64,000 bases of DNA from Nitrospirota bacterium (GTDB lineage Bacteria > Nitrospirota > Thermodesulfovibrionia > UBA6902 > DSMQ01). The position numbers were made by a program, and so were the translations under genes. Below the pieces are notes generated by a model. That model searched no databases. It was not told the origin of the DNA and saw only the letters and a program-made list of their open reading frames with translations. Positions 12,548 to 47,147 of the stretch are shown here, piece after piece (positions within the stretch are counted from its first letter, which is position 1; each line of letters starts with the position of its first letter). Where the stretch lies: positions 31,240 to 95,239 of the forward strand of contig JACRGX010000056.1 in NCBI GenBank assembly GCA_016212185.1, read 5' to 3'.

Positions 12548-14632
12548 TTACACGACCTTGTCACTGCCCCATTTCTCGGAATATCTTCGCCTGCTTTCGG
12601 CTATAACATCCTCTCTGCTTAATCCAGCCTCAAAACCTTCAAGGCACCATCTTAGACACTCAGAGATACGTTCTGATGAAGCGCTGTCCATGAAAGGGTC
12701 CAGTATCTCATGAACCGCGCTGCAGTCGCCAAATCCGTCAAATCCGCCTTCTATATGCTTATGCAACGAGCCGAGCAATAACGGCATGCTGTCAAAGATG
12801 CAGATGTTTTTAAGGTTCTGCTGATAAAAAATACCCCTTATTGTCCTTAGAGGGTTAAACACAGCCGTGCGTTTTCCGCAGCATATGGATGTAAACATCG
12901 CGGTGGAAGGAAGACTGACTGCCATGTCAGCTACCTTTGACGAAAGCGTGACAGTGGTAAAAGGGTCCAGGATAAAACATCGCCGCTTTTCAACCAGAGA
13001 TTTAAAACCTTTCAATATATCCGCAGGCATGCGGCTGAAAAATTTCTCTTTCTTGGGTTTTATTACAACTGAGTATCCGCCCCTTTCCTCCATATCATTG
13101 AACAAGGTGCGGTAAAAATCAAAAATAACATCCCTGCCGTATATAAACCCGGGTTCATCAAAAACTGCTATCAGCGGACCGTTTTCAAAAGCGCCCATAT
13201 CTTTCAATTTGTCTTTAAGAAGATTAACCTGTTCACTAAGAGCTTCACTGTCCATCTGGTCATGATAGTAGCCGCTGATGACTTTATTAATGGCTTTATC
13301 CGGGTCAATAACCTGGCTAAGACTGTAACTGCCGGATAAAAAGGATACATTTGCCGGCCTGTCATCATAATATGAATGATTGCTGTATACCATGCTTCGT
13401 TCCACAAGGGCATTTATGCCGCCTGCCATCTCCATGGCAACCGCCCTCTGGTATATTTCAGCTCCGTAGGCGTCTTCAACATAAACTTTTATACTGTTTG
13501 ACATGAAATAGTCATACCACCATGCAACCCCTTTCAGTAAAAAAGCCGTCTGTACGTATGTCCAGAGGCGCTTGCGGCTGAACAGTATAATGTTTATCAG
13601 AAACAGACCCAAAAGCTTTAGAGACTTTGTAAGAATAATTTCATAATAAAGACCCGTCGGCTTCCATAGAGGGAATGAACCTTCTTCTGTGCCGGCATAA
13701 CCTCTTCTCCTTCCGTGGACTTTCATTTGAAGCCTGCCCGCCAACTCAAATTCCGCGTCGGTCGGCTGACGGTAGTCATTCTCCCAAAGACCTGCCAGAT
13801 GTGCGGGACTAAGCGCCCTTCCCCAAGCCCAATTAAGGTTGTTGCGCATATCAGGGGAAATTCCGTCAGAAATACTTGTAGCGATATAATAACCGAATAT
13901 TTTATGCGGCGCACCTGATGTTGAGATTTTTCCAAGAAAAGGGGCAATAAAAGGCAGCTGCGTTTCTGCCCGCTTATTCCTTACCAAATTGTTATCATGG
14001 GATTTATTAAGAAAAATTTTATTGAATATCTTTTCCGCATACCACGATGTAAAACCGGGATAACCGCCTCCGACAATCACTGCAAAAGGCATCTCCCTCA
14101 AATAAACTGCCAGTTCTTTCCCCCACCAGTTTGCCGGTACAAATAAAATGAACTCCTCTTTATCATCAGTTTTGCTCTTAGCCTGCCGCGATAAAATGTA
14201 AAATGCAAGATAGACAGCGGCTTCTATTTCCTGTGCAATCCTGAATTCTATGTATGCGGGTACAAATAAGCCGGCACTCAGTCCCGGCACAAGTGAACTG
14301 AAAGCATTTCTGTGTTCATTGGAAGAAACAATTTTTTTTGCTAATTGTATCACGGTATCATTTGCCCTTTCCCTGAGATTGTTACCGTTCTCATCGCAAA
14401 GCTCCTTTGCCGGAAGCGCATTAGGGCTGCAGGCAAGTCTCCTGGCGGTAATTTTTCTGGGAAATACTCTTGTCAGTAATGCAACCAGATGCTCAGCAAT
14501 AAAGTTTGCTTTCCAGTAGACAATCTCTAAAGAATTATATCTAAGGCAGACCTGCATTATGCGGATAAACAGCGATAATGAGATAAAAACAAAAACTATC
14601 GAACAGCGCCTGCCCCTGACCGACTTATGCAT
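12548..14632 (-). CDS. large hypothetical protein with TagF/Capsule_synth-like C-terminal domain
   Basis: 694 aa; C-terminal VVIKPKKEKF...STAMFTSICCGKR parallels KxHP paralogs. Confidence 0.3.
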   Translation of the reverse strand: MHKSVRGRRCSIVFVFISLSLFIRIMQVCLRYNSLEIVYWKANFIAEHLVALLTRVFPRKITARRLACSPNALPAKELCDENGNNLRERANDTVIQLAKKIVSSNEHRNAFSSLVPGLSAGLFVPAYIEFRIAQEIEAAVYLAFYILSRQAKSKTDDKEEFILFVPANWWGKELAVYLREMPFAVIVGGGYPGFTSWYAEKIFNKIFLNKSHDNNLVRNKRAETQLPFIAPFLGKISTSGAPHKIFGYYIATSISDGISPDMRNNLNWAWGRALSPAHLAGLWENDYRQPTDAEFELAGRLQMKVHGRRRGYAGTEEGSFPLWKPTGLYYEIILTKSLKLLGLFLINIILFSRKRLWTYVQTAFLLKGVAWWYDYFMSNSIKVYVEDAYGAEIYQRAVAMEMAGGINALVERSMVYSNHSYYDDRPANVSFLSGSYSLSQVIDPDKAINKVISGYYHDQMDSEALSEQVNLLKDKLKDMGAFENGPLIAVFDEPGFIYGRDVIFDFYRTLFNDMEERGGYSVVIKPKKEKFFSRMPADILKGFKSLVEKRRCFILDPFTTVTLSSKVADMAVSLPSTAMFTSICCGKRTAVFNPLRTIRGIFYQQNLKNICIFDSMPLLLGSLHKHIEGGFDGFGDCSAVHEILDPFMDSASSERISECLRWCLEGFEAGLSREDVIAESRRRYSEKWGSDKVV

Positions 14633-15678
14633 TATTTCAACTTGGATAAAACAAGACCGGCAACAGCGTCAACGGCGCCCCTGTGGTCAGGGGCTGATGC
14701 CTTAACCTCTTTCCAATCCCCCAGGTAACCGTGCCCTGCAAGATAATTCCAAAGCCTAGGCAGGAGAAATGAATTCTCCGGACTCCATCCTGAAAGAAAC
14801 GGCTCAACATTATATGTGGGAACCCCATATGCAACGCTTAACTGCGTAAACATTGAGGTAAGCCCGTAAACCCTGTCTGATATGCCGAGTACCGTCATCT
14901 CATCAGCCTCTTCAAATCCTATCCGCCTGAGTCTGTTATCAACCTTGTTTTTTTCATTTGGATGCGGCCTGACCAGAATAAGCACGTCTTTTCCTTCTTT
15001 TTCAACTATTTTTGCTTTTAAAGCAACACCCCCTGCATCCATATCAAACAGGCTGCCGCATCCTGCATCGCACGGCTCATAAAATGAGTGGCTATGGATA
15101 ATCTCTGACGCCAGAAAACAGACTTCTTTATCTTCTGGAATGCTTAGCTTTTTTTTTGTTTCTGTTTTCACTTTCTCAGACATTTTGGTCAAACTGCATT
15201 TTTCAAGATAGGGATGACCGGTAACCACAAGCTTGTCTTCAGGCATTCCCATATCAGCCAGCGCTGTTTTTGCGGCACTGTCCATCACCGCAAGTATATC
15301 CGGCATGTCATGCGTCAGCCCTCCGTCAGGTTCCAAAAATCTCTCAAGACCTTTGTAGTTGTCCAGAAAAGCAATACTAAACAGCCCCCTCTTTCCGGCT
15401 TCTCTAAAGATTTCCCGGTTAATCGTGTGTTTTGGATGACCATAGCCTGTCAATAAGAGGCTGAACTCTTTTGCAGGGAAATCCACCCAGCTCATGATTT
15501 TACTGTAATGTTTTTTATATACGATGTCTGACGGCGGTAGGGCATAAATATCTAACATAAGACCGGCTGACATCAATTTTCCAATAACCGGGATCAGTGC
15601 AGCAGCTGAACCTGCCTGCTGTGAAAAAATAAGTATGGATTTATCCGCTGCCTGTCTCAAGTTTTCTGAGTTCATCAA
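14632..15678 (-). CDS. TagF/Capsule_synth-like Rossmann transferase (putative)
   Basis: LILVRPHPNEKNK (RPHP) motif; 348 aa. Confidence 0.35.
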   Translation of the reverse strand: MMNSENLRQAADKSILIFSQQAGSAAALIPVIGKLMSAGLMLDIYALPPSDIVYKKHYSKIMSWVDFPAKEFSLLLTGYGHPKHTINREIFREAGKRGLFSIAFLDNYKGLERFLEPDGGLTHDMPDILAVMDSAAKTALADMGMPEDKLVVTGHPYLEKCSLTKMSEKVKTETKKKLSIPEDKEVCFLASEIIHSHSFYEPCDAGCGSLFDMDAGGVALKAKIVEKEGKDVLILVRPHPNEKNKVDNRLRRIGFEEADEMTVLGISDRVYGLTSMFTQLSVAYGVPTYNVEPFLSGWSPENSFLLPRLWNYLAGHGYLGDWKEVKASAPDHRGAVDAVAGLVLSKLK

Positions 15679-16936
15679 TATTTGCCTGTATCTTCCTGAG
15701 CGCTTTTACAAACTCTTCTACTTCTTTTTCAGTATGAGGATACCTGCATATATTAGTCACAACCATTTTCGTATCATGGATCAATTCCGCTTCAGGACAT
15801 ATTCCGGGAGAGTAGTCGGGCTTGCAATTATATTCAGGGAAAAGCCTTTTAAAGTTACCGGCTGCAGGGTCCTGATGTTCCTGATATATAGGGCACCTGT
15901 AGATAGGCGCAGCATAGTTAGATGCATGCACGCCTTCGGCAATTAACGACTTCAGCAAAAGATCGCGGGTTATTCCAAGTTTTTCACTTTTATAAAGCAT
16001 GGGGTAAAGATAAAAGACATGTGTGCATTCCTTACGAATTGCCGGCGGCATAATGAAATCTATCTCACCTAATGCAGCAGTAAGTTTCCCTGCAAGCGAA
16101 ATGCGTCCGGAATTCAGGGTTCCAAGCTTATTAAGCTGAGGGATGGCGACTGCTGCATGGAGTTCTGAAAGCCTGTAATTGAAGCCCACAACATCTGCAT
16201 TCCTGTTCGTCTCCCAGTCAAGAAGCACAACCTCTCCATGGTTCCGGCAAAGCTGCAGGCGCTCTGCAAACCGGCTGTCATCAGTCAGGACAACGCCTCC
16301 TTCTCCGCACTGGATAGTCTTGTGGCGGTTAAGGCTGAACACGCCCATATGGCCTGTCCTTCCGGTAAACCTTCCCTTGTATTTTGCTCCGGGCGCCTGG
16401 GCATTATCTTCAACAACTATAAGACCATGCCTTGCGGCTGTATCCATAACAGGATCCATGTCGGATGAAAGTCCGAAAAGATTTACCGCTATTACAGCTT
16501 TTGTGCGTTCAGTAACCGCAGCCTCCAGTTTTGACGGATCCAGGCAAAACATCTCAGGCTCTATGTCAATAAAGACAGGCACTGCATGGCACATAAGCAC
16601 TGCGGCTGCCGTTGCGCTCATGGAATAAGGCGGCACAATCACCTCATCGCCCGGGCCTATGCCTGCTGCAATCATGGTCCCGTGCAAAGCAGACGTGGCG
16701 GAGTTAAAGGAAATTGCATATCTGCTTCCGTACTTGGTGCAGAAAAGCGCTTCAAGCTCTCTGACCTTTGCGCCTCCGTAGAACTGTTCGTTTCCCCTCC
16801 CCACAAAGCCGGACAAAACTCCGGTATCAAGAACAGACATTGCCATTTTCTTTTCTTCATCGCCTATTGTGTTATAAGGGGGATAAGGCTCTCTGCGAAC
16901 AGGCTCGCCGCCAAACATCGCAAGTTTTTCAGGCAT
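15641..16936 (-). CDS. DegT/DnrJ/EryC1/StrS-family PLP-dependent sugar aminotransferase
   Basis: FNSATSALHGTMIAAGIGPGDEVIVPPYSMSATA and NRHKTIQCGEGG blocks characteristic of the family. Confidence 0.85.
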   Translation of the reverse strand: MPEKLAMFGGEPVRREPYPPYNTIGDEEKKMAMSVLDTGVLSGFVGRGNEQFYGGAKVRELEALFCTKYGSRYAISFNSATSALHGTMIAAGIGPGDEVIVPPYSMSATAAAVLMCHAVPVFIDIEPEMFCLDPSKLEAAVTERTKAVIAVNLFGLSSDMDPVMDTAARHGLIVVEDNAQAPGAKYKGRFTGRTGHMGVFSLNRHKTIQCGEGGVVLTDDSRFAERLQLCRNHGEVVLLDWETNRNADVVGFNYRLSELHAAVAIPQLNKLGTLNSGRISLAGKLTAALGEIDFIMPPAIRKECTHVFYLYPMLYKSEKLGITRDLLLKSLIAEGVHASNYAAPIYRCPIYQEHQDPAAGNFKRLFPEYNCKPDYSPGICPEAELIHDTKMVVTNICRYPHTEKEVEEFVKALRKIQANIDELRKLETGSG

Positions 16937-17939
16937 GATTATTTCTCCCTGAACTATACTGCTTATTAATCACCTCTGTGACATCTCCTATAAGCTTTGC
17001 CGTTTTTACGGAATCTTCAGGCGGTGAAAAAGTTGAATCACCGTTACCTTCAACCGCTTCAATCAGATTTGCAAGAGCCCTTGTAAACGAATCTTTCCAT
17101 CTGCAGATTACGGTTTCAGGTTCAGGGTTAAGAATATTCAAATGAGGGAACTCCTTATCGCTCATTACATGATAAATTTCAATCCGCCTTCCGTTTTCAC
17201 AGATGCGTATCCTAGCGTTTTCACAAAATATATCAAGTTCAAAAATATTGTAGCCGCCGCTTAAAGGCTGCAATATGCTGTATATTCCTCCGCGTGTTTT
17301 GCAGACCATATATACCGGACCGTCTCCGCCTCCTAAAAAACCGGCGGCAGGTTGAGCATGCATAAGAGAAAATTCCTCCTCAAAGAAATTCATCAGGTCA
17401 ATCATATGCGAACCATTCCGCACATAGCCCCCTGTGTACAGTCCGCTCATCATCTTTATTTTCCCGTAGAGCCCTCTGATGATATCGCTCCGTATCTCTG
17501 CTATTTCAGGTATGAACCGCCTGAAATAATTTATCTGCACCAGGATCCCCGATTCTCTGCTTCTGCCGCTTATTTCTTCTGCAGACCTGCCGTCAAGCGC
17601 CATGGGTTTTTCACACCATATGCCTTTCACTCTGCGGTTAATAGCTTTCACTAATAATTCATAATGTGAATCATCCGGAGTGCATATGCTCAATATATCA
17701 ACCTGCTCGTTATTGACAAGACTATCAAAATCCTCGTACGCCCTCAGTTGAGGAAACGCTTTCTTAACAGCAGTCCGCTGCGCCTTGTCGGTTTCTGCAA
17801 AAGCAATCAGCTCTACATGCCCGCTCAACTCCATATAGCTCCTGACATGTGTCATAGGATATTTTTTTTCTCCTATGCCTGTTGCAATAGTTCCGGCTCC
17901 GACTATGGCGGAATACAGCTTCTTTTCTGTGTAATTCAA
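16929..17939 (-). CDS. Gfo/Idh/MocA family oxidoreductase
   Basis: LYSAIVGAGTIATGIG N-terminal Rossmann; EKP motif region CEKPMALD. Confidence 0.75.
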   Translation of the reverse strand: MNYTEKKLYSAIVGAGTIATGIGEKKYPMTHVRSYMELSGHVELIAFAETDKAQRTAVKKAFPQLRAYEDFDSLVNNEQVDILSICTPDDSHYELLVKAINRRVKGIWCEKPMALDGRSAEEISGRSRESGILVQINYFRRFIPEIAEIRSDIIRGLYGKIKMMSGLYTGGYVRNGSHMIDLMNFFEEEFSLMHAQPAAGFLGGGDGPVYMVCKTRGGIYSILQPLSGGYNIFELDIFCENARIRICENGRRIEIYHVMSDKEFPHLNILNPEPETVICRWKDSFTRALANLIEAVEGNGDSTFSPPEDSVKTAKLIGDVTEVINKQYSSGRNNHA

Positions 17940-26432: not shown

Positions 26433-28898
26433 TTAATAAACGTTTTCTGTTTTTCTTTTCTCAAAAATCATAATAACGATAAAAATAATAAATCCGCAGG
26501 CTGAGATAACAGTCCATCCCCAATAATGCCTGAGGCTGTACTGAATCACAGCCTTTTCTGTCATATCAATGTCAACTATCCTGAACGGTCCGTTAGATAA
26601 TGGAAAATCAACACGCGATTTATTCTCCTTAACAACTTCCCATCTCCCTTCCGCGGGAATATTGGTCAGGGGAAAACTGATATTTCTGTGATATTCCAGA
26701 GGGTGGTTCATAAAAAGGGCGCCTCCCGTGCCTCTCAAATCAGGCGGCGCAGAGACCTCCCACCTGATATTGGAACTGCGTGAAAAATTCAATTTGCGTT
26801 TAAGCCTGTCTAAAACCAAAAAATCATAAACTGCTTTTTGGGAGCCTCTTGCTAATCCCTGAATAGTCTCTTTCAAAAACCTGCTGTCCGCCCCAGGGAA
26901 ATAAGTTATGTCAGGCCATGGTTCACCAAGCTCATACAGGCGCAGTCCACTGGTCTGTTTTATTTTCTTTGCCCCGATGTCATTTATTTCACGGTCTGTA
27001 AAAAGATATTTTACCCCAAGCGCCCTGAAGAGGCTTTTTGCAGAAATAACCATACTTGAATCTTTTTCAGATATCACTTTTTCAGAGCATATCCAGTTTA
27101 CCTCCATGAGATTTACGCCTTTTTTATTCAGTTCTTCAATATCATTAAGCGGCGCCCAGAAGCACCTCATCTCGGTAAAAATGCCTGTATCCGTAGGGCC
27201 GTCAAATGTGCTGAAACCCGCTAATGTAGCCTCATTGCGATACCACTGGTGTCCGGCAGAGCCGCAGTCTTCCAGGGTCAGCGCCTTATCCCTGTTTTTT
27301 ATTTCAATGCCGGAAAAAATCGGATGTCTTAAAACATCATATTTAGAAAGAAGGTCCGGCCTCTGAAACTGGTAAATTAAGAGGTAGCCGATTCCAATAA
27401 GAAGCACCAGCAGGAGCTGTGCCCTGGAAGTGTTCTTTGAAGAACTGCTGTAAACATTGAGGCGCCAGAAAGAAAAAAAAAAGATTGATATCAGTAATCC
27501 AAGTCCGGTAGTAAAAAACCGCTCCTCATGATTATGGATTAGCCCTGCGAATTCAGGCAGTTTGCCGGGCAATGCCCTCACTAACTCAGGTGAAAGCATC
27601 TGCAAAACAGAAACTGACCAGTAGACAGCATTTGCCAGGAGTACAACAGCAAGGACCAGCAATATAATTTTCATAAAATTCTTACCTGCTTTCTCCTTGT
27701 TGTTTTTAAAATATTCCGACAGCCATGCGATAAGAATAAAGCCAAACAGATTGGCAAAAAAAAGCATACGGAATAATGCATTATTAGAATATTTCATTCC
27801 CGGCATTACGCTGCGGAATATCGCCTGAAGACCCTCAAAACTCGTAATCAAAAAGGCGGCTACCCAGAAATATATCATCGCAATTATCCCTACAGGGAAA
27901 TTTTTCAATAAAGACAGATACAGCAGGATAGGGAGTATAAACAAAAAAGGGACATAAGCGTTATTGCCCAATCCAAAAACACTCAGCGAACTTATCACGG
28001 CATTCAAGTTGTTCCACGGCGCATAGCTTGAATAACTTGGGGCTACAGGCTCCCTGACAAGATAGCTCTCCAGAAGTATGGGCCCGAGGAAAAAAGAGCA
28101 AAAAAGAACTGCGGAGGAATAGCATGCAACGCCTCTTGCGATACGGCTGACCCTCTCCTTCCTTGGTATCGTGGAGTGCAAAACAAAGGCAACAGAAATC
28201 ACAACAAGGAATAAAGATATAAAAAGAAGTACTGAAAGAAAATTAGTGATAATTGAAAGGCTTAAAAAAATAAAAAGCAGGGACAAATAAAATGGGTTTC
28301 TGTGCTGCAGATATAAATAATATGCCAGAGTTATATATAACCCTGAATATAGGATTCCCGGTTGATGCGTATGAGCGTAAAAATGAAGTGACAGCGGAGT
28401 AAATAACCCGAATATCATAACCATAAACGTCCAGACAGGTGAAATTTGCAAAGTTCTGCACCAGAACAAAAACCCCAGCATCCCGTAATTCAGCAATAGA
28501 AATATCTGCACCCCCTTTGCAATATGGTCATCTGAAATGACAAGCCAGGGCAAATGGAAGGGAGAGAGGTAGCTGTATATCATTGAATCTTCCTGTGATA
28601 CCCCTCCAAAAGTCCTTTCGTTCCAGAATGGCAAATCACCTTTAAGAATGCTCTCTCTGTAAAACCTGAGAAATATGCGCTCCTGGTCAAAGAAGTCTCT
28701 CTGACCATACTGGTTGCGGAGCGTCATAGCCTCATGCACCTGCCCCGAAGATGCAAATGTGCCTGTGTACAAAACCTCTTTTGGGGCATAGGCGTACCTG
28801 CCTGAAAGATACGGCAATGCTGTCAGGATAATTATGATTTCAATCAATATGACAATTTTTACGAGTTCGCTGTTTTTATTGAACATTCTTAAGCTCAC
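26433..28898 (-). CDS. large polytopic membrane protein, YfhO/GT-C-like glycosyltransferase (putative)
   Basis: 821 aa; N-terminal about 450 aa multi-TM region plus soluble C-terminal domain, typical of GT-C enzymes. Confidence 0.4.
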   Translation of the reverse strand: MSLRMFNKNSELVKIVILIEIIIILTALPYLSGRYAYAPKEVLYTGTFASSGQVHEAMTLRNQYGQRDFFDQERIFLRFYRESILKGDLPFWNERTFGGVSQEDSMIYSYLSPFHLPWLVISDDHIAKGVQIFLLLNYGMLGFLFWCRTLQISPVWTFMVMIFGLFTPLSLHFYAHTHQPGILYSGLYITLAYYLYLQHRNPFYLSLLFIFLSLSIITNFLSVLLFISLFLVVISVAFVLHSTIPRKERVSRIARGVACYSSAVLFCSFFLGPILLESYLVREPVAPSYSSYAPWNNLNAVISSLSVFGLGNNAYVPFLFILPILLYLSLLKNFPVGIIAMIYFWVAAFLITSFEGLQAIFRSVMPGMKYSNNALFRMLFFANLFGFILIAWLSEYFKNNKEKAGKNFMKIILLVLAVVLLANAVYWSVSVLQMLSPELVRALPGKLPEFAGLIHNHEERFFTTGLGLLISIFFFSFWRLNVYSSSSKNTSRAQLLLVLLIGIGYLLIYQFQRPDLLSKYDVLRHPIFSGIEIKNRDKALTLEDCGSAGHQWYRNEATLAGFSTFDGPTDTGIFTEMRCFWAPLNDIEELNKKGVNLMEVNWICSEKVISEKDSSMVISAKSLFRALGVKYLFTDREINDIGAKKIKQTSGLRLYELGEPWPDITYFPGADSRFLKETIQGLARGSQKAVYDFLVLDRLKRKLNFSRSSNIRWEVSAPPDLRGTGGALFMNHPLEYHRNISFPLTNIPAEGRWEVVKENKSRVDFPLSNGPFRIVDIDMTEKAVIQYSLRHYWGWTVISACGFIIFIVIMIFEKRKTENVY

Positions 28899-28919: not shown

Positions 28920-29738
28920 CTATTTGCCGGCTTTAGCTCTGAGCCGCTCGTGTGCAATCCTCTGCTGAACACCGGCATTTATCGCCTTCAGTTCCGGATT
29001 TTCTGAAACCAGCTTTATGGCTTCAAGGGATGAAAACGCAGGATTACGATGATAAAGCATATTGTATATTCGGGACATCAACTCATAGTCTTCAGGCGTA
29101 TCAACTGTAAAGCGCAGTTCAGGATGTCTCCATTCAATGTATTTCCCTTCCGCCTGAAAATCACCGAGTTTATATTTGCCGTCTGTACGGTTATATATTC
29201 CGTAGGTTCCGTGCTCCCGGATTTTAATGTCTTTTATTTCCTCAGAAACATCAAGAATTATTCCCGCCCTGATGACCTGGACCGAGATGCCCGCAGGGAA
29301 TGTACGTTCAGCCATCCACTTATCCGAATGGTGCATATGCGTGCTGGCTGCATAATCATACCCCTTGCTGAAGAAAAAACTGACCATGTCGTCAATAAGC
29401 ACGGGGTCTATCAGCGGATTATCGCCGGTAAGGCTGACGACTACATCAGGGGTATATTTTTTTATTGCGCCTGCAAGCCTGTCCAGCACATCTTCCTCGC
29501 TTCCCCTGTAATAGTCTGTGCCGAGTTCTTCTGCAAGATGAACAAGGACGTCATCCCTTTTCTCCGTAGTAGTAGCCAAGACCACCCGGTCAATACTTCC
29601 GGCTCCGGCAGCCCTCTCAAAAACACGCTGAAGCATAGGGGCGCCTGCAAGCGGTTTTAATACTTTTCCGGGAAGGCGCGTAGAGCCCATCCGGGCTTCA
29701 ATGGTTGCTATTATTTTTTTTTGGACTGCCATCGGCAT
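28920..29738 (-). CDS. cytidylyltransferase (SpsF/PseF/acylneuraminate cytidylyltransferase family)
   Basis: KIIATIEARMGSTRLPGKVLKPLAGAPML N-terminal signature. Confidence 0.75.
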   Translation of the reverse strand: MPMAVQKKIIATIEARMGSTRLPGKVLKPLAGAPMLQRVFERAAGAGSIDRVVLATTTEKRDDVLVHLAEELGTDYYRGSEEDVLDRLAGAIKKYTPDVVVSLTGDNPLIDPVLIDDMVSFFFSKGYDYAASTHMHHSDKWMAERTFPAGISVQVIRAGIILDVSEEIKDIKIREHGTYGIYNRTDGKYKLGDFQAEGKYIEWRHPELRFTVDTPEDYELMSRIYNMLYHRNPAFSSLEAIKLVSENPELKAINAGVQQRIAHERLRAKAGK

Positions 29739-29783: not shown

Positions 29784-30323
29784 TTATTTCTGCTTTTTTA
29801 TCACTGCTAAACGAACTACATCGGTAAAAAGACCGTTTCTCAGAAAATGATCCCTGAATATCCCTTCCTCAACAAAGCCTGCTTTCTTATATGCCCTGAT
29901 TGCGGCCTCATTATGGGCATTAACACCGAGACCTATCCTGTGAAGGTTCAGCTTATTAAATGCATGTGCCGCCAATAAATTTATCGCCTCGGTTCCATAG
30001 CCCTTTAATTGAGCATCTTTTTCACCTATCAAAATTGCCAGCTCGGCGCGCCTGTGAATCCAGTTTATCTCATGCAGACCGATATTCCCTATATGACGGT
30101 CGGTTGATTTTTCATGTATACAGAAAACCACGTCGTTTTTGTGTCCGCTGACGCGTTTATAAAAAACCCTCATCTTCTCCTTTGTATTCGGCCACATGGC
30201 GTGACTTGTATAGAGGTCATTGTCATGGTCGTTGAGCCACTGGAAGTATCTGTCATTATTCAGGTCAGACTCTTCAATCCCCCGGAGATAGACCTTATTG
30301 CCGATTAAAAAAGGATCCTTCAT
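29784..30323 (-). CDS. GNAT family N-acetyltransferase (RimL/PseH-like)
   Basis: 179 aa; NIGLHEINWIHRRAELAILIGEKDAQLKGYGTEA acetyl-CoA binding motif region. Confidence 0.75.
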   Translation of the reverse strand: MKDPFLIGNKVYLRGIEESDLNNDRYFQWLNDHDNDLYTSHAMWPNTKEKMRVFYKRVSGHKNDVVFCIHEKSTDRHIGNIGLHEINWIHRRAELAILIGEKDAQLKGYGTEAINLLAAHAFNKLNLHRIGLGVNAHNEAAIRAYKKAGFVEEGIFRDHFLRNGLFTDVVRLAVIKKQK

Positions 30324-30329: not shown

Positions 30330-31703
30330 TTATACAGTCTCAATCCCTGTTCCGCCTTCAGCTACTTTTACGGGCGGCACTAATTCCAGGTCATCAAGAT
30401 AGTCAAGAAAATTTATAAGAAGCAGGTCATTATATCTTTTTGCTACAACCTGAAGGCCAAACGGGAGTCCTTTCGGTCCTGTAAATACCGGCACATTTAC
30501 AGCCGGGACATGGCATAAGGTCCAGATAGGACAATAATCTTTATCCCTCGCCTCTTCTACAGGCGCCTCTCCAAATGAGGACAGGCTTAGCAAAATGTCG
30601 TACTCTTCAAATACGCTGTCAAGCCTGTGAATCAGTGTCCTCTGCTCTTTCAATGCACTTGAATAATTATCAGGCGGATATGAAAACCCGAGTTTAATAT
30701 GATGCTTTAAAACATCACTCATTAACTCAGGCTGTCTGTAATATTCTTCTTTGAAATAATAGGCAAGGTCTGAATTATAGATATGAGAATGAATCGCATG
30801 GACATTTTCAAATCCTTCGGGAAGTCCGGCTTCTTCTATTAATATATTTTCATTTGCCAGTCGGCTGATAAAATCAATGAAGTCCTTCTTAGCATATTCA
30901 GAAACACCATTCCATATACTGCCTTTAACAATACCCACTTTCCAGAATTTTCTTCCTATATCCTTTAACAGTTTTTCTTCTTTGAGGGGATGGTCCCTGC
31001 CTCCTATTCTTGCGGAATCGAACAGCAGCTTAATGTCACGGACTGAACGCGTAAAAAACCCTACCTGGTCCAGAGTTTCCATTGTCTTAAGCACCCCTGT
31101 CCTCGGAATCATGCCAAAAGTGGGTTTCATGGCATATATACCGCAGTAGCTCGCCGGTCGTATCAAGGAGCCTGCTGTCTGTGTACCCAGAGCAACAGGA
31201 ACCATCAAGGATGCAACCGCTGCGGCAGAACCGCTTGAAGAAGTTCCGGGCGTGTGTTTGATATTGTGAGGGTTTCTTGTCGCCCCGGGAAAATGAACGG
31301 CAAATTCGGCAGTAACAGTTTTGCCCATGATTATCCCGTCATCCCACATCATCTGTTCTACAACCCTCGCGTCATTGCCGGCCTTATGCCCCTTCCATAT
31401 CGGACTCCCCATTTCAACAGGGAACCCCCTTGTATTAAATATGTCCTTAACGCCGATTGGAACCCCGCACAGTCTGCCGCAAACCTTACCGCGTGACAAA
31501 TTATTGTCCACTGCGGCGGTCTGTTCAAAGACATGCTCCTCATTAAGAAATTCCCATGCGCTGATTTTCCCCTCCAAACTTCTGATTCTTTCAAGATATG
31601 TCATGGCAACATCAGCGGCGGAAAGATTCCCGGACCGTATTTCTTTGACAATATCAGATGCCGTTTTAATTAATTTGATATTGACTACGCCTGAACTATT
31701 CAT
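30330..31703 (-). CDS. amidase signature family protein
   Basis: GTSSSGSAAAVASLMVPVALGTQTAGSLIRPAS amidase signature (GGSSGG-type). Confidence 0.8.
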   Translation of the reverse strand: MNSSGVVNIKLIKTASDIVKEIRSGNLSAADVAMTYLERIRSLEGKISAWEFLNEEHVFEQTAAVDNNLSRGKVCGRLCGVPIGVKDIFNTRGFPVEMGSPIWKGHKAGNDARVVEQMMWDDGIIMGKTVTAEFAVHFPGATRNPHNIKHTPGTSSSGSAAAVASLMVPVALGTQTAGSLIRPASYCGIYAMKPTFGMIPRTGVLKTMETLDQVGFFTRSVRDIKLLFDSARIGGRDHPLKEEKLLKDIGRKFWKVGIVKGSIWNGVSEYAKKDFIDFISRLANENILIEEAGLPEGFENVHAIHSHIYNSDLAYYFKEEYYRQPELMSDVLKHHIKLGFSYPPDNYSSALKEQRTLIHRLDSVFEEYDILLSLSSFGEAPVEEARDKDYCPIWTLCHVPAVNVPVFTGPKGLPFGLQVVAKRYNDLLLINFLDYLDDLELVPPVKVAEGGTGIETV

Positions 31704-31728
31704 CTAAAAACCGCCGTCTCTGGAGCTA

Positions 31729-32874
31729 TCAGGGCAAACGCCCTGCCGCTCCTTTTCTCTGTCCCTTTATTTCCTTTATTATCTCTGCTTCGCTGAGGCC
31801 TGTAATTTCCATATAATATTTCAGCGCTTCAGGTTTAAGTGAATCATATTTTTTTATCATTTCAAAGCCCTCTTCCTGCGTCAATATGCCGGCCCTGACG
31901 TCTCTGGTGGCATGGTCAGTGGTGCGTCCGAAGCCGCGTTTCAGATATTTTAAATAATCATGCACTCCTGCCATGTTACATTCTACGCTTTTATAACCTT
32001 TGTATGTACCTTCAACATCTCCCTCTCTCCAGCCATATTCCTTCTTTATAAAATCCACCTGCCGTTCATCATCCCAGAATATATAATCTCCAAGATGTAT
32101 TCCTTCAACCCCTGCCTTCCTCATCTCTTCAGCTGTGGGAAACATGAAAGGCCTCAATTCACTTCTTTTAATCTCATCACTTACCATTTGGTCAATGCCG
32201 ACTTTTGAAGATATCTTTTGAAAATATTCCGCGTCATATCTGACAGGGTTAAAGTATGTAGCCTTAGTGCCGTTTTCAGCCGCTGATTCACCCCAAATAA
32301 TAAGTTTTATGCCGAATTTTATGGCTACCTGCAGGGGAAATGCGCCAACCCCTGCGTGGCAGTGCCAGCAGGAGTCGCCTATTTTATAAAGCGACTGTTT
32401 TGCAAGGCGGTCTACAAGGCTTTTCTTGGGTGTGAACATTATATGGTCAATATCAAATTTTTCAAGACAGTTCTGCAAATTATATTTCCCTGTTTCAGAA
32501 AACCATGTATGGCTGAAAGTCACGGCAAGAGGACGCATTCCCAAAACTTTTGTAACAACATGAAGCTGGTATGTGCTGTCTTTACCGCCGCTGATAGGCA
32601 CAATACAGTGATAATTATCCCCTGCAATTTTTTTATTATGCTCCACTTTCTTAAGCAATTCGTTCCATCTGTCTTCCCAGTTTATCTTCATCTTCTGTTC
32701 CGAACTGTTACAACCCGAGCATATTCCTCTCTCATCAAAGGTTATACCCTCAACAGTCTCAGGCAGACAGCAGCGGACACAGTATTTCAACTGGGGGAAA
32801 GGGACTTCAAGCTCTCCTTTTTTTACGGCTTTTTCTGTTTTGATTTTATCAATTAATTTCATAATTGCCTCCAC
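31729..32874 (-). CDS. N-acetyl sugar amidotransferase (PP-loop ATPase; PseA/WbuX-like)
   Basis: N-terminal CxxC zinc ribbon plus IVPISGGKDSTYQ PP-loop (SGGKDS). Confidence 0.75.
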   Translation of the reverse strand: MEAIMKLIDKIKTEKAVKKGELEVPFPQLKYCVRCCLPETVEGITFDERGICSGCNSSEQKMKINWEDRWNELLKKVEHNKKIAGDNYHCIVPISGGKDSTYQLHVVTKVLGMRPLAVTFSHTWFSETGKYNLQNCLEKFDIDHIMFTPKKSLVDRLAKQSLYKIGDSCWHCHAGVGAFPLQVAIKFGIKLIIWGESAAENGTKATYFNPVRYDAEYFQKISSKVGIDQMVSDEIKRSELRPFMFPTAEEMRKAGVEGIHLGDYIFWDDERQVDFIKKEYGWREGDVEGTYKGYKSVECNMAGVHDYLKYLKRGFGRTTDHATRDVRAGILTQEEGFEMIKKYDSLKPEALKYYMEITGLSEAEIIKEIKGQRKGAAGRLP

Positions 32875-32900: not shown

Positions 32901-33935
32901 TTAGCTGCCTGCTTTATCAATATTATTGTACGTCAATGGCTCTTCGCTATCTATATCCTTTTGGGCGATAAATGAGCTGACAGTATCAAAATCTTCAAAA
33001 GAGACACTGTTTGCAGGTACCGGTCTTAACCAGATGACGTCTGCGGCAGTTATTTTTTGTCCTTTACGGATATTGTATTTAGCATATGCACTGCGGCGCA
33101 GGTTTGTCCTTCCGTATTCCTCAGAGGGCTGGATTTTTCTCGGATAATCTCCCATCATTTTCTCCAGCCGCCTGATGTCCCTGATAAAGTCTGACATCTC
33201 CTTAGGCTCAAGTGAAAGCGCACGGTCCCCCCCGGGAATAGACCGGTCAAGAATAAAATGCTTCTCAATTACAACCGCCCCAGTTGCCACTGCAGCAAGC
33301 GGGGCAAGGGTGTCAGCAGTATGGTCGGAATATCCCACCGGCAACCCGTATCTTTGATTATAAAAAGGTATCAGAGACAGACCTGTTTCATTATCAGGGA
33401 CAGGATACGCGCCGATACAGTGAAGCAGAATTGACCCTTTTTTCGGGAGCATTTCAGCAAGCCTGTCTACCTCCTCCTGCTTGCAAAATCCGGTTGATAC
33501 GAGAACCGGCTTGCCTTTTGAAATAACGTGCCTAAGCAAAGGCAGATTATTTGCATCTCCTGATGCAACTTTGAACGCCGGTACAATATCATCAAGAAAA
33601 TCAGCGCTCTTTTCGTCAAAAGGGGTGCATAAAAATACCATGCCAATAGATTCCGCCTTCTGCGCCAATTCCCGGAAGACTCCTCCGGGAAGAACCATAC
33701 TTTTAAATCTCTCCCTTTGTGTGCCGTGTGATTTATCAGGCACATGTTTAAGCACCGGCGCATCTTTGCTTACAAGGAGCTCCGGGTCAAAAAGCTGGAA
33801 TTTAACGGCATCCGCCCCGCTTGCAGCCGCAGCTTCAAGGGTTTTCATGGCAAGCTCGGCATCGCCCAAATGATTGTTTCCGATTTCGGCAATTATAAAT
33901 GTCTTTCTGCCAATTTCAAAATTACCTATTTTCAT
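32901..33935 (-). CDS. nonulosonic acid synthase (N-acetylneuraminate synthase family, NeuB/PseI/LegI-like)
   Basis: FIIAEIGNNHLGDAELAMKTLEAAAASGADAVKFQ hallmark; C-terminal SAF-like domain. Confidence 0.9.
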   Translation of the reverse strand: MKIGNFEIGRKTFIIAEIGNNHLGDAELAMKTLEAAAASGADAVKFQLFDPELLVSKDAPVLKHVPDKSHGTQRERFKSMVLPGGVFRELAQKAESIGMVFLCTPFDEKSADFLDDIVPAFKVASGDANNLPLLRHVISKGKPVLVSTGFCKQEEVDRLAEMLPKKGSILLHCIGAYPVPDNETGLSLIPFYNQRYGLPVGYSDHTADTLAPLAAVATGAVVIEKHFILDRSIPGGDRALSLEPKEMSDFIRDIRRLEKMMGDYPRKIQPSEEYGRTNLRRSAYAKYNIRKGQKITAADVIWLRPVPANSVSFEDFDTVSSFIAQKDIDSEEPLTYNNIDKAGS

Positions 33936-33965: not shown

Positions 33966-35384
33966 TTACTTTTCATAAAGGTACTTATCTTTCGGTACCC
34001 TGTCCAAATATCCCTCTTTCATGATTTGAGAAGCCAGCCATATTGAAAATTCATTATTTACTACTTCAATGCTTTCATTCTGCGACAGCTCAATAAAACC
34101 GATGGAATTCCCGAGCCAGTCTTTTCCAAGCAGATTTTTTGTCTTAACAATTCGTATGCCGCCGGTCTCCAAATATAGGGTATCGCTGTCTTCCTTCATT
34201 ATCTTTCTGTCATACCCGAATGGCACCAGTCCGCTTGGTCCTGGTCTCCAGTAAAAGTCATAATGCTCCATAACTGAGATCACTGAGTCATAATCATGTA
34301 TCAACATTGTATCAATAGCCTCGGTCAGATGATAAGATTTTATAAAAGGACAGTTTATTGAAATCGTTGCCATTATGTCAGGCATGCTATGCCCCCTTTT
34401 ATCCATCTCTCTGACAAAGTAGCTCACAACTTCACCCCTTGTTACAGTCGGGCTTGCTAATCCCTTTGGGTGCAGTCCCAGCGACTTTGCTCCGTATTTT
34501 ACGGCAATCTCCTCTACTTCCTCATCATCGGTCAATATATAAACATCCTGCATATATTCACATTCCATTAATGCATTAAGGGAATAATTTATGAGCGGCA
34601 TGCCATTTATATCTGCAAGTGCAATCTTAGGAATGCCCGATTTCTTAAGAAAAACTGATTCGCGAATCAATCCAATAACCTTCCTGTCTGCCCCAACTTT
34701 TTCTCTGACAAATTCGTGCTTGACATGCCTGCGCGCCATTGACCGTTTCTCTGAGTTTGTTGACATAGTTCCTTCATGTCTGCGGTAATACATAAGCGGC
34801 AGCCTTACATTATAGACATTGAACCTGTTGATAAAACGGAGCCAGAAGTCATAATCCTCCTGATATTTTAGTTCCTCATTATAACCGCCGATTTCGTCAT
34901 AGCACTGTTTCCTGTACATAGCCCCTGCGCCTAATGGAGCCCTGTCCAGGAGTTTGATCTCATCATTGCTCTTCATCAGCCTGTAATGCTCTATAATATT
35001 GCCGGAGTAGTCAACTTTAAAATAGTCCGAATAGACAAGGTGGACCTCTGGCTTAGAGTCCAGTATCCGGCTTTCAACCAATAAGGCATTTTCATCAAAG
35101 TAGTCATCGGCGTCCAGCCTTATGATGTATTGCCCCCTTGACTCCCTGATTGCAGCGTTGCATGCAGCAGCCAGCCCCACGCCTTTAAGTCTGACGACCC
35201 TGACTTTAGGATGTTTAGTATATTTTTCAAGAACTTCATCCGTATGGTCGGTGCTGCCGTCTTCAGCTATGATAAGTTCAAACTCCTGGCATGTCTGGTT
35301 TAGTACGCTATCTATTGCCTGCCCCAGAAACTTTGCATAATTATGCGCTGTCAGTATTACGCTTATTTTTGGTTTGTCACTCAT
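33966..35384 (-). CDS. bifunctional GT2 glycosyltransferase / cytidylyltransferase-like protein
   Basis: ISVILTAHNYAKFL...IIAEDGSTDHT (GT2) then C-terminal CMP-sugar synthetase-like domain. Confidence 0.55.
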   Translation of the reverse strand: MSDKPKISVILTAHNYAKFLGQAIDSVLNQTCQEFELIIAEDGSTDHTDEVLEKYTKHPKVRVVRLKGVGLAAACNAAIRESRGQYIIRLDADDYFDENALLVESRILDSKPEVHLVYSDYFKVDYSGNIIEHYRLMKSNDEIKLLDRAPLGAGAMYRKQCYDEIGGYNEELKYQEDYDFWLRFINRFNVYNVRLPLMYYRRHEGTMSTNSEKRSMARRHVKHEFVREKVGADRKVIGLIRESVFLKKSGIPKIALADINGMPLINYSLNALMECEYMQDVYILTDDEEVEEIAVKYGAKSLGLHPKGLASPTVTRGEVVSYFVREMDKRGHSMPDIMATISINCPFIKSYHLTEAIDTMLIHDYDSVISVMEHYDFYWRPGPSGLVPFGYDRKIMKEDSDTLYLETGGIRIVKTKNLLGKDWLGNSIGFIELSQNESIEVVNNEFSIWLASQIMKEGYLDRVPKDKYLYEK

Positions 35385-37759: not shown

Positions 37760-38281
37760 TTATACTCTCTCAACATTAGCCGCTTCTATCTTTACCGCCA
37801 CTCCCTGACGGAGAATATCAACCGAAAGCACCAGCATATGCTGTCCCAGTTTTTCAACGAGTATTCCCTCAACACCGCTCAGGGAGCCGTATTTAATCCT
37901 TACCCTTTGCCCTTCTTGCAGATATGGATAAGGGTCCAGCGTTTCCTTGCTTTCAATAAGTTTTTTAAGCGATATTATTTGTTCGTCAGGGATAGGCTCA
38001 GGCTCTCCGCGTCCTGCGCCGAGGAGCCGCACCACTCCCTTAATCCGGACCACATTTAATATATCCTGCGACCTTTTTGTTGTATAAACAAATATGTACC
38101 CCGGGAACAGGGGAAATGTAACTGCTTTTTTCCTGTCCTTCCATTTTCTGAGCCGCTCCACTGCAGGCAGAAAAGCCTCAATGCCTTTCATTTTAAGCCT
38201 GTCATACACCTGAAATTCATGACGGGACCTTGTATGGACCGCATACCAGTTCTGTTCTGCATTTGCCGTTAGTTCCATCAT
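37760..38281 (-). CDS. NusG-paralog transcription antiterminator (UpxY/LoaP/RfaH-like)
   Basis: NGN domain WYAVHTRSRHEF..LPGYIFV plus C-terminal KOW (GQRVRIKYGSLSGVEGILVEK). Confidence 0.8.
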   Translation of the reverse strand: MMELTANAEQNWYAVHTRSRHEFQVYDRLKMKGIEAFLPAVERLRKWKDRKKAVTFPLFPGYIFVYTTKRSQDILNVVRIKGVVRLLGAGRGEPEPIPDEQIISLKKLIESKETLDPYPYLQEGQRVRIKYGSLSGVEGILVEKLGQHMLVLSVDILRQGVAVKIEAANVERV

Positions 38282-38886
38282 CCCTCTTTAGAAAGCAAAA
38301 ATAATTTTTTTGTATCTGCACCCATATCCATAGCCCTCTGCCTTTCGTTTTCCTTGTCTTTTAAGGATGTAATCAAAATGGCGTCATAATTTAAGCCGGC
38401 TAAATCCTGCGGGGCATAAATGTTATGCCCGAAAAAACCGTTGTCCGCCCTTTTATTGTCAATTATTCCAATCAGATTAAGCGGCAAGCCCCGCAGGGAA
38501 ACATAACATAATTCCGCAACTTCCCCGTCGCCCCATAACAGGAGGTTTTTTGCCCCTGATGAAATCATCTGTTTATAGACATTGTCTATTCTCTGGCGGA
38601 TGTCCTTGAAATAACTCAGGGAGAAATGCATATATTCATAGGTCAATCTTACCTTCTCTGTAAAACCTTTGGGGGTAAGGATATATTTGACCCTGTTTTG
38701 CGGGATAGTGGTAACCTTTATATACCCTTTTTTAGCCAGCCGCTTCATGTAGGCATTCACAAGCCCAAGGGCAACATCAAGCTTGCCCGATAGAGAGCGC
38801 TGTGTGACATGAGGCTCTTTGCTTAATTCGTCAAGGATTCTTAGTGTAATATCATCATCATGCCTGTCAGTCTTAAGCTTGTTCAT
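38278..38886 (-). CDS. Rex-like winged-helix transcriptional regulator with C-terminal Rossmann/CoA-binding-type domain
   Basis: N-term wHTH RLAKKGYIKV resembles Rex ALGKKGYGY; C-term LLLWGDGEVA...LIGIIDNKRADNGFFGHNIYAP...DAILITS parallels Rex NADH-binding domain layout. Overlaps nusG-paralog start by 4 nt. Confidence 0.45.
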   Translation of the reverse strand: MNKLKTDRHDDDITLRILDELSKEPHVTQRSLSGKLDVALGLVNAYMKRLAKKGYIKVTTIPQNRVKYILTPKGFTEKVRLTYEYMHFSLSYFKDIRQRIDNVYKQMISSGAKNLLLWGDGEVAELCYVSLRGLPLNLIGIIDNKRADNGFFGHNIYAPQDLAGLNYDAILITSLKDKENERQRAMDMGADTKKLFLLSKEG

Positions 38887-47051: not shown

Positions 47052-47068
47052 AATAGTTCTTCGTTAGT

Positions 47069-47142
47069 GTGTCATTCCCGTGAAAACGGGAATCCAGAAT
47101 ACAAAAAATCTGGATGCCCGATTAAGAATCTCGGGCATAACA
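47069..47142. repeat. MITE/REP-like element between larC and larB
   Basis: tgtcattcccgtgaaaacgggaatccag ... ctggatgcccgattaagaatctcgggcataaca. Confidence 0.6.
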
Positions 47143-47147
47143 GATCC

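What the first reader, a model, noticed from the sequence alone, without database searches (positions are those of the whole stretch)
30330..32874. Amidase plus PP-loop amidotransferase pair suggests an acetamidino-modified nonulosonic acid
The PseA/WbuX-type N-acetyl sugar amidotransferase (31729-32874) is directly followed by an amidase-signature enzyme (30330-31703) and a GNAT (29784-30323). In Campylobacter, PseA converts Pse5Ac7Ac to the acetamidino form. The adjacent amidase could supply ammonia, GatA-like, or remove an acyl group. This would be a possible new glutamine-amidotransferase arrangement.
Basis: inference. Interest (0 to 1): 0.5.

Follow-up and report, generated by a model that had tools for sequence, protein, structure and literature searches.

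The report
Amidase partner for acetamidino-sugar amidotransferase
A sugar-modifying enzyme that turns N-acetyl groups into acetamidino groups is almost always encoded beside, and in many bacteria fused to, a dedicated malonamidase-like amidase that most likely supplies its ammonia; no paper in the library searched describes this pairing.

Summary
31729-32874(-) is a WbuX/PseA-type N-acetyl sugar amidotransferase (PP-loop and Zn-ribbon intact). 30330-31703(-) is an amidase-signature enzyme with an intact Ser-cisSer-Lys triad. 29784-30323(-) is a GNAT. All lie in a UpxY-headed glycan operon of a Nitrospirota MAG.

The amidase is not housekeeping GatA (205 bits against a 481 cut-off; 26% identity; GatA's glutamine-binding elements are absent). 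Its nearest solved relative is malonamidase E2.

The pairing is strongly conserved. 78 of 79 informative orthologue loci have WbuX adjacent, against 0 of 7 paralogue loci (p=1.5e-9), and the reverse test gave 5 of 5. At least 74 protein clusters are natural WbuX-amidase fusions with both active sites invariant, one from cultured Solidesulfovibrio alcoholivorans. An AlphaFold model of that fusion is confident (pTM 0.85).

The classical WbuX partners, HisH/HisF-like WbuY/WbuZ, are absent. Where both system types share a locus, each WbuX paralogue keeps its own partner.

Best reading (about 0.6): the amidase is the ammonia-generating module of a two-part or fused acetamidino-forming amidotransferase, replacing WbuY/WbuZ. 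The amide donor is unknown and cannot be assumed to be glutamine. This is a new variant of a known kind, and it is testable.

The parts
31729..32874 (-). WbuX/PseA-type N-acetyl sugar amidotransferase (NASAT). A PP-loop ATP pyrophosphatase with a Zn ribbon, and the synthetase component.
   Evidence: TIGR03573 at 335.7 bits, above the 203.2 cut-off. Matches 8WEX at 132 bits. SGGKDS and CxxC...CxxC motifs present. 50-75% identical orthologues sit next to the amidase in 78 loci.
30330..31703 (-). Malonamidase-E2-like amidase-signature enzyme. The proposed ammonia-generating partner of WbuX.
   Evidence: PF01425 at 233.5 bits. Below every NCBIfam cut-off, including GatA at 205 against 481. Malonamidase E2 scores 199.7 bits against 141 for GatA. 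Triad K86/S155/S179 and R182 conserved; GatA glutamine-site elements absent. Fused to WbuX in at least 74 clusters.
29784..30323 (-). GNAT N-acetyltransferase. Probably makes the N-acetyl group that WbuX converts.
   Evidence: PF13302 at 79 bits and PseH at 55 bits. Within 6 kb in 83% of well-flanked loci. GNAT-WbuX fusions exist: P0170, P0195, P0470, P0477, P0478 and P0483.
28920..29738 (-). KdsB/PseF-like cytidylyltransferase (CMP-sugar synthetase) that travels with the module.
   Evidence: PF02348 at 106 bits. Present in 62% of well-flanked loci.
32901..33935 (-). NeuB-family ulosonic/nonulosonic acid synthase.
   Evidence: PF03102 at 236.8 bits. Scores 280 on NeuB and 236 on PseI, both below their cut-offs. 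Present in 62% of well-flanked loci.
15641..16936 (-). DegT/PseC/LegC-like sugar aminotransferase, a member of the co-travelling module.
   Evidence: PF01041 at 291.8 bits. PseC 221 bits and LegC 182 bits, both below cut-off. Present in 92% of well-flanked loci.
16929..17939 (-). GFO/IDH/MocA oxidoreductase, a member of the co-travelling module.
   Evidence: PF01408 at 62 bits. Present in 79% of well-flanked loci.
14632..15678 (-). 348-aa protein of unknown function that often travels with the module. Possibly a GT-B-type nucleotide-sugar hydrolase or transferase.
   Evidence: No Pfam or NCBIfam hit. Homologues occur in L001, L003, L011, L015, L018 and L023. Counterparts in L003 and L096 carry weak Glyphos_transf/Epimerase_2 hits.
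37760..38281 (-). UpxY-family NusG-like antiterminator at the head of the glycan operon that contains the pair.
   Evidence: NF033644 at 139.8 bits, above the cut-off of 100.

Best explanation
WbuX and the amidase form one enzyme system: two subunits in this window, a single polypeptide in many other bacteria.

- WbuX uses ATP at its PP-loop to activate the carbonyl of a sugar N-acetyl group. That group is installed by the neighbouring GNAT on an amine made by the DegT aminotransferase.
- The amidase hydrolyses a primary-amide donor at its Ser-cisSer-Lys triad and hands the released ammonia to WbuX.
- The ammonia attacks the activated carbonyl to give the acetamidino group.

The amidase therefore occupies the role played in classical systems by the HisH/HisF-like pair WbuY/WbuZ. 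The sugar is probably a CMP-activated 5,7-diamino nonulosonic acid or its nucleotide-hexose precursor.

**Shown:** gene identities, intact catalytic residues, conserved linkage, fusions, and complementary distribution with HisH/HisF.

**Inferred:** ammonia transfer, the identity of the amide donor (unknown; not demonstrably glutamine), and the sugar substrate.
For: 1. **Linkage.** 78 of 83 orthologue loci have WbuX adjacent. In 73 it lies directly upstream on the same strand, with a median projected gap of -5.5 nt. Four of the five exceptions are truncated contigs. Distant paralogue loci score 0 of 7 (p=1.5e-9). The reverse test, starting from WbuX, gave 5 of 5.
2. **Fusions.** 66 clusters are WbuX-amidase and 8 are WbuX-WbuX'-amidase, supported by several contigs and sources and including Solidesulfovibrio alcoholivorans DSM 5433. 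Fused and unfused forms are interleaved in a neighbour-joining tree.
3. **Active sites.** Both are invariant in 58 full-length fusions: the PP-loop SGGKDS and K493/S562/S586.
4. **HisH/HisF.** They are absent from the 64-kb window and from 81 of 83 loci (777 kb). In L057 and L098 a classical-type WbuX (30-36% identity) sits with HisH and HisF, while a second WbuX is next to (L057) or fused with (L098) the amidase. The classical layout MviM dehydrogenase - aminotransferase - acetyltransferase - WbuX - HisF2 - HisH is documented in PMC11340318.
5. **Structure.** The AlphaFold2 model of the 875-aa fusion has pLDDT 87.9 and pTM 0.85, with only the linker at low confidence.
6. **Nearest relative.** Malonamidase E2 is an ammonia-releasing primary-amide hydrolase.
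7. **Co-evolution.** Amidase-WbuX distance matrices correlate at r=0.69, against 0.49-0.55 for pairs involving DegT or GNAT.
Against: - There is no biochemical evidence.
- Adjacency and fusion also occur between consecutive pathway enzymes; GNAT-WbuX fusions exist. They do not prove ammonia hand-over.
- GatA's glutamine-recognition elements are missing, so there is no positive evidence for any particular donor.
- From my own knowledge, some WbuX-family enzymes such as Campylobacter PseA have no dedicated partner, and WbuY/WbuZ have been reported as dispensable. A partner is therefore not chemically required.
- In L057 a gap of about 630 nt (or a 230-aa N-terminal extension) separates WbuX#2 from the amidase.
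Confidence: 0.6

Rival explanations
1. The amidase is a consecutive pathway enzyme acting on the sugar or glycan rather than an ammonia donor. It might remove or exchange an N-acyl group before GNAT and WbuX act, or work as a ClbL-like transacylase.
For: The fusions and operon order fit consecutive steps equally well, and GNAT-WbuX fusions show that such fusions occur in this pathway. Amidase-signature enzymes that cleave secondary amides or catalyse transacylation appear among the structural neighbours: 6-aminohexanoate cyclic dimer hydrolase, FAAH and ClbL. The invariant R182, equivalent to malonamidase E2 Arg158, could bind a sugar-acid carboxylate.
Against: Classical WbuX/HisH/HisF systems make acetamidino sugars without any amidase. 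Amidase-type systems lack HisH/HisF, and where both occur each WbuX has exactly one partner, which points to functional equivalence. The amidase is tied to WbuX (100%) more tightly than to GNAT (83%, variable position). Deacylation would undo the GNAT step.
Confidence: 0.2
2. The amidase is housekeeping GatA, the glutaminase of the tRNA-dependent GatCAB amidotransferase, and lies next to WbuX by chance.
For: GatA is the top NCBIfam hit by E-value, and JGI labels relatives as 'GatA subunit family amidase'.
Against: It scores 205 bits against the GatA cut-off of 481 and is 26% identical to S. aureus GatA. The GatA segments holding Tyr309 and Asp425 are deleted and Arg358 is not conserved. No gatB or gatC lies in the window. 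Linkage to WbuX is conserved and fusions exist.
Confidence: 0.01
3. The amidase works with WbuX but cleaves a covalent adduct instead of supplying free ammonia. WbuX would couple the activated acetyl carbon to the nitrogen of an amide- or amine-bearing donor, and the amidase would then release the carrier to leave the amidine, by analogy with argininosuccinate synthetase and lyase.
For: This fits the strict 1:1 pairing, the fusions and both active sites being essential. PP-loop enzymes such as argininosuccinate synthetase and TilS do use amine nucleophiles other than ammonia (my own knowledge).
Against: Nothing supports it directly. Amide nitrogens are poor nucleophiles. Classical WbuX enzymes pair with HisH/HisF-type ammonia generators, and the amidase-type WbuX is clearly homologous to them, with the same motifs.
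Confidence: 0.07

Closest known systems
WbuX/WbuY/WbuZ (also WbpG with HisH2/HisF2, and the Methanococcus and Legionella equivalents): N-acetyl sugar amidotransferase with HisH-like glutaminase and HisF-like partner
   Same: It has the same synthetase component (TIGR03573, PP-loop, Zn tetracysteine). It sits in the same pathway logic of oxidoreductase, DegT aminotransferase, acetyltransferase and then WbuX, within glycan clusters.
   Different: HisH and HisF are absent. A single amidase-signature protein takes their place, adjacent or fused. The WbuX itself belongs to a distinct clade, 50-75% identical within the clade and only 30-36% identical to HisH/HisF-linked WbuX in the same loci.
Malonamidase E2 (Bradyrhizobium japonicum; PDB 1OCK, 1O9O and others)
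   Same: It is the closest solved relative of the amidase: 199.7 bits, 35% identity, TM 0.88. Both have a compact amidase-signature fold without the GatA insertions, the same triad, and the GS-x-I-R-P motif with an Arg at the nucleophile+3 position, as Arg158 is in malonamidase E2.
   Different: Malonamidase E2 lies outside the WbuX-linked clade. More than 150 cluster representatives are closer to the window protein than it is. Whether the substrate is the same is unknown.
GatA of GatCAB (tRNA-dependent amidotransferase)
   Same: GatA is an amidase-signature enzyme that acts as the ammonia-generating subunit of a multi-subunit amidotransferase. The triad aligns residue for residue.
   Different: The window protein is not an orthologue (205 bits against 481; 26% identity). 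Its partner is a PP-loop enzyme, not GatB/GatC. The glutamine-binding Tyr309 and Asp425 segments are deleted and Arg358 is not conserved.
Glutamine-dependent PP-loop amidotransferases (NadE, GuaA, AsnB)
   Same: They follow the same design principle: an amide hydrolase module feeds ammonia to a PP-loop adenylating module, as separate subunits or a fusion. A NadE of this type lies in the same window at 39240-40985.
   Different: Their hydrolase modules are of the nitrilase, class-I triad or Ntn type. To my knowledge, and in the literature I could search, none uses an amidase-signature module.

Membership tests
N-acetyl sugar amidotransferase (NASAT; WbuX/PseA/WbpG; TIGR03573) | Scores above the curated family HMM cut-off | tested here: met
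   335.7 bits against a cut-off of 203.2.
N-acetyl sugar amidotransferase (NASAT; WbuX/PseA/WbpG; TIGR03573) | PP-loop SGGxDS and Zn-binding tetracysteine motif CxxCxn[GN]xCxxC (as defined in PMC10607449) | tested here: met
   S95-GGKDS, and C32-VR-C35 ... G-I-C52-SG-C55.
N-acetyl sugar amidotransferase (NASAT; WbuX/PseA/WbpG; TIGR03573) | ATP-dependent conversion of a sugar N-acetyl group to acetamidino | not testable with these tools
   Needs an enzyme assay or glycan structure analysis.
Classical WbuX-WbuY-WbuZ system | HisH-like glutaminase and HisF-like protein encoded with WbuX | tested here: not met
   tblastn with E. coli HisH and HisF found no hit in the window or in 81 of 83 orthologue loci.
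Amidase signature (AS) superfamily | Pfam PF01425 above cut-off, the Gly/Ser-rich signature, and the Ser-cisSer-Lys triad | tested here: met
   233.5 bits. The GTSSSGS motif is present. K86/S155/S179 align with GatA K79/S154/S178 and malonamidase E2 K62/S131/S155 and are invariant in 44 and 58 homologues.
GatA (TIGR00132 equivalog) | Scores above the equivalog cut-off | tested here: not met
   204.9 bits against 481.1.
GatA (TIGR00132 equivalog) | Glutamine-recognition residues of S. aureus GatA (Tyr309, Arg358, Asp425; residue roles from my own knowledge of the 2F2A/2DF4 work) | tested here: not met
   The Tyr309 and Asp425 segments are deleted. The Arg358 position is variable (H, Q, D or N) (GatA sequence verified against 2DF4).
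GatA (TIGR00132 equivalog) | Works with GatB and GatC | tested here: inconclusive
   No gatB or gatC lies in the 64-kb window. The rest of the genome was not available.
Malonamidase E2-like amidases | Closest sequence and fold match, and conservation of the Arg at nucleophile+3 (malonamidase E2 Arg158) | tested here: met
   199.7 bits, TM 0.88, and R182 is Arg in 42 of 44 sequences.
Malonamidase E2-like amidases | Hydrolysis of malonamate | not testable with these tools
   Needs an enzyme assay.
Nonulosonic acid (Pse/Leg-type) biosynthesis cluster | NeuB-family synthase, CMP-transferase, DegT aminotransferase and N-acetyltransferase in one cluster | tested here: met
   All four are present in the window, but none reaches a PseI, NeuB, PseC, PseH or PseF equivalog cut-off, so the sugar type is unassigned.

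The most novel reading that the evidence does not exclude
This is a new class of amidotransferase in which a malonamidase-like amidase-signature module, rather than a class-I, Ntn or nitrilase glutaminase, feeds a PP-loop synthetase from a non-glutamine carboxy-amide donor. One attractive version: the co-travelling DegT aminotransferase uses glutamine as its amino donor, and the resulting 2-oxoglutaramate is hydrolysed by the amidase. One glutamine would then supply both nitrogens of the acetamidino group.
Probability: 0.15. Interest if true: 0.75.

Novelty: new variant of a known kind. Interest (0 to 1): 0.6.

Why it matters
- **Surface glycans.** Acetamidino sugars such as PseAm, LegAm, FucNAm and ManNAc3NAmA decorate flagella, O-antigens and capsules and shape immune recognition. 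How their amidotransferases obtain nitrogen is poorly understood; the only structural paper says little is known (PMC10607449).
- **Enzymology.** A dedicated amidase partner would add a new combination to amidotransferase enzymology, an amidase-signature module paired with a PP-loop module. It is found in many phyla and repeatedly fused to WbuX.
- **Annotation.** It would correct hundreds of database entries now called 'amidase', 'GatA family amidase' or simply 'N-acetyl sugar amidotransferase'.
- **Experiments.** It offers a ready single-chain test system from a cultured organism, S. alcoholivorans DSM 5433.

Tried and rejected
- **Single-sequence genome scan.** The loci served as a negative control.
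- **GatA hypothesis.** Rejected on HMM score, identity and active-site comparison.
- **HisH/HisF exceptions.** I first read the HisH/HisF hits in L057 and L060 as evidence against exclusivity. ORF-level analysis showed a second, classical-type WbuX paired with HisH/HisF, and L098 confirmed the pattern.
- **Signature-block insertion.** I first thought the family shares a one-residue insertion with malonamidase E2. Realignment showed no insertion, only a shifted Arg: GS-x-I-R-P against GS-I-R-Q-P.
- **Literature.** Searches combining amidase with N-acetyl sugar amidotransferase, acetamidino, nonulosonic or PseA found nothing relevant.
- **Active-site distance.** I could not measure it, because the model coordinates are not exposed.
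- **RNA elements.** tRNA and Rfam scans of the window found nothing.
- **DegT donor preference.** NCBIfam could not resolve whether it uses glutamine or glutamate.
Full report
**1. The observation**

- 31729-32874 scores 335.7 bits on TIGR03573 (WbuX, N-acetyl sugar amidotransferase; cut-off 203.2). It matches the only solved family member, Legionella NASAT 8WEX. It carries the two family hallmarks named in PMC10607449: the PP-loop SGGKDS and the Zn-binding tetracysteine motif.
- 30330-31703 is a Pfam Amidase (233.5 bits).
- 29784-30323 is a GNAT.

The gaps are 25 nt between WbuX and the amidase and 6 nt between the amidase and the GNAT.

The genes lie in a long minus-strand glycan operon. A UpxY-type antiterminator heads it (37760-38281). 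It also encodes a NeuB-family synthase, cytidylyltransferases, a DegT aminotransferase, a GFO/IDH/MocA oxidoreductase, glycosyltransferases, several radical-SAM enzymes and a flippase. The window is identical to a Nitrospirota MAG contig.

**2. The amidase is not GatA**
- It scores 205 bits against the GatA equivalog cut-off of 481, and it reaches no NCBIfam cut-off at all.
- It is 26% identical to S. aureus GatA and 35% identical to malonamidase E2.
- Among solved structures, malonamidase E2 is the best sequence match (199.7 bits against 141 for GatA) and the best fold match (TM 0.88).
- I aligned 44 family members with GatA (sequence verified against 2DF4) and with malonamidase E2. The triad K86/S155/S179 is invariant and aligns with the known catalytic residues.
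- In the same alignment, the GatA segments carrying Tyr309 and Asp425 are deleted, and the Arg358 position is variable.
- The family shares the GS-x-I-R-P motif with malonamidase E2, including the Arg equivalent to Arg158.
- No gatB or gatC lies in the window.

The protein is therefore an active amide hydrolase of the compact malonamidase type, and its substrate is unknown.

**3. Conserved linkage**

The amidase has a large family of relatives at about 40-50% identity. They occur in Nitrospirota, Betaproteobacteria, Thermodesulfobacteriota, Magnetococcales, Bacillota, Actinomycetota, Omnitrophota, Binatia and a MAG labelled Nanoarchaeota. I examined 83 orthologue loci: three from exact look-ups and 80 from a metagenome scan.
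- 78 have a WbuX homologue next to the amidase.
- In 73 of these, WbuX is directly upstream on the same strand, with a median projected gap of -5.5 nt.
- Of the five loci without WbuX, four are cut by the contig end. The fifth (L030) has only 169 nt downstream.
- Seven loci carrying distant amidase paralogues have none, giving Fisher p=1.5e-9.
- Starting from WbuX orthologues instead, five of five have the amidase immediately downstream.
- Distance matrices of the two proteins correlate at r=0.69. Pairs involving DegT or GNAT give 0.49-0.55.
- Among 24 loci with at least 6 kb on both sides, DegT is present in 92%, GNAT in 83%, GFO in 79%, and the cytidylyltransferase and NeuB in 62% each.
- Some loci lie in Maf/pse flagellin-glycosylation islands.

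**4. Natural fusions**

An exhaustive search of 1.84 billion representatives showed that six of the top eleven hits are long proteins with a C-terminal amidase domain, and all six have WbuX at the N-terminus. A search with one fusion, followed by domain classification, gave these architectures:

| Architecture | Clusters at 90% identity | Notes |
|---|---|---|
| WbuX-amidase | 66 | 58 are full length (848-922 aa); linker about 45 aa |
| WbuX - degenerate WbuX - amidase | 8 | 1123-1183 aa |
| Degenerate WbuX - WbuX | 11 | |
| GNAT-WbuX | 4 | |

- Several contigs and independent data sources support the fusions, so they are not assembly artefacts.
- One is from the cultured Solidesulfovibrio alcoholivorans DSM 5433, and NCBI names it only 'N-acetyl sugar amidotransferase'.
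- In all 58 full-length fusions, the PP-loop and the amidase triad are invariant.
- In a neighbour-joining tree, fused and unfused amidases are interleaved, with malonamidase E2 and GatA outside. This suggests repeated fusion or fission. The tree is rough and has no support values.
- AlphaFold2 on the naturally paired alignment gives pLDDT 87.9 and pTM 0.85, with only the linker at low confidence. That implies a defined orientation of the two halves.
- No solved structure covers both halves.

**5. Relation to the known partner**

In classical systems, WbuX is encoded with HisH-like and HisF-like proteins. One example is the Sphingomonas cluster: MviM dehydrogenase, aminotransferase, acetyltransferase, WbuX, HisF2, HisH (PMC11340318). 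Legionella clusters are another (PMC3694923).
- HisH and HisF homologues are absent from the window and from 81 of 83 loci, a total of 777 kb.
- The exceptions are informative. L057 encodes GNAT - WbuX#1 - HisH - HisF, followed by WbuX#2 and the amidase.
- The S. alcoholivorans locus encodes classical WbuX - HisH - HisF - GNAT. It then encodes CTP-transferase - GFO - unknown - DegT - GNAT - WbuX::amidase.
- L060 is compatible with the same pattern.

Each WbuX paralogue therefore has exactly one partner type. This is what I would expect if the amidase and HisH/HisF do equivalent jobs through specific docking.

**6. Mechanism**

The best reading, at about 0.6, is this:
- The GNAT acetylates a sugar amine made by DegT.
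- WbuX adenylates the acetamido carbonyl.
- The amidase hydrolyses an amide donor and passes ammonia to WbuX, which forms the acetamidino group.

Shown: gene identities, catalytic residues, linkage, fusions and complementary distribution. Inferred: ammonia transfer, the donor and the sugar.

The main rival, at about 0.2, is that the amidase is a consecutive enzyme acting on the sugar. Fusion alone cannot exclude this, because GNAT-WbuX fusions also exist. The one-partner-per-WbuX pattern and the absence of any amidase in classical systems argue against it. An adduct-cleaving role (about 0.07) and housekeeping GatA (about 0.01, refuted) are minor alternatives.

**7. Novelty**

No paper in the searchable library connects an amidase with this enzyme family. 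No curated NCBIfam model covers the amidase. Databases label the proteins generically.

The system is a new variant of a known kind. It is an N-acetyl sugar amidotransferase whose accessory nitrogen module is an amidase-signature enzyme, a combination I do not know from any characterised PP-loop amidotransferase.

Its 'GatA-like glutamine' detail is not.

Noticed in passing
window 37760-38886 (-): A UpxY-family NusG-like antiterminator (139.8 bits, cut-off 100) and a winged-helix regulator head the roughly 37-kb glycan operon. UpxY is best known from Bacteroides capsule loci, but here it is in a Nitrospirota MAG.
   Followed up: partly
window 36406-37596 (-): A UDP-sulfoquinovose synthase-like gene (567 bits, just under the 575 cut-off) is the first biosynthetic gene of the operon. 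It hints at a sulfonated sugar in the same glycan.
   Followed up: no
window 25018-26427, 20680-22161, 23771-25015, 2301-3218 (-): Two B12-binding radical-SAM enzymes and two radical-SAM/SPASM enzymes lie inside the glycan operon. Similar genes travel with the WbuX-amidase module in L001, L094 and L098, which suggests C-methylation or other radical chemistry on the sugar.
   Followed up: no
window 33966-35384 and 5201-6574 (-): Two GT2 glycosyltransferase::cytidylyltransferase fusion proteins. A similar one is in L092. These could activate a sugar acid and transfer it within one polypeptide.
   Followed up: no
window 26433-28898, 12548-14632, 3279-5189, 673-2304, 14632-15678 (-): Five operon ORFs (821, 694, 636, 543 and 348 aa) have no Pfam or NCBIfam hit. 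The 348-aa one co-travels with the module, and its counterparts carry weak GT-B-type hits, so it may be a PseG/LegG-like hydrolase.
   Followed up: partly
P0129, P0131, P0133, P0139 and others; L094 6001-7959; L027 1219-4665: Tandem WbuX proteins pair a canonical WbuX with a degenerate copy, about 25-30% identical, that has lost its PP-loop in the copy examined (L027). The degenerate copy sits at the N-terminus or acts as a spacer between WbuX and the amidase. It may be a pseudo-enzyme scaffold domain.
   Followed up: partly
L098 (S. alcoholivorans) 1175-11628; L057 1888-8302: Two acetamidino-forming systems, WbuX+HisH+HisF and WbuX+amidase, lie side by side, each with its own GNAT. This suggests two different acetamidino groups, or a doubly amidinated sugar.
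   Followed up: partly
window 39240-40985 (-): A glutamine-dependent NAD synthetase (nitrilase-type hydrolase fused to a PP-loop synthetase) lies just upstream of the operon. It is a housekeeping example of the same 'amide hydrolase plus PP-loop' design.
   Followed up: no
window 48981-52209 (-): A GlnRS-type and a GluRS-type aminoacyl-tRNA synthetase are adjacent. A dedicated GlnRS would make the Glu-tRNA(Gln) transamidation route unnecessary in this organism.
   Followed up: no
window 45873-47882 (-): LarC (nickel insertion protein, 492.6 bits) lies next to a LarB-like AIR-carboxylase-family gene. These are parts of the lactate-racemase nickel-pincer cofactor pathway.
   Followed up: no
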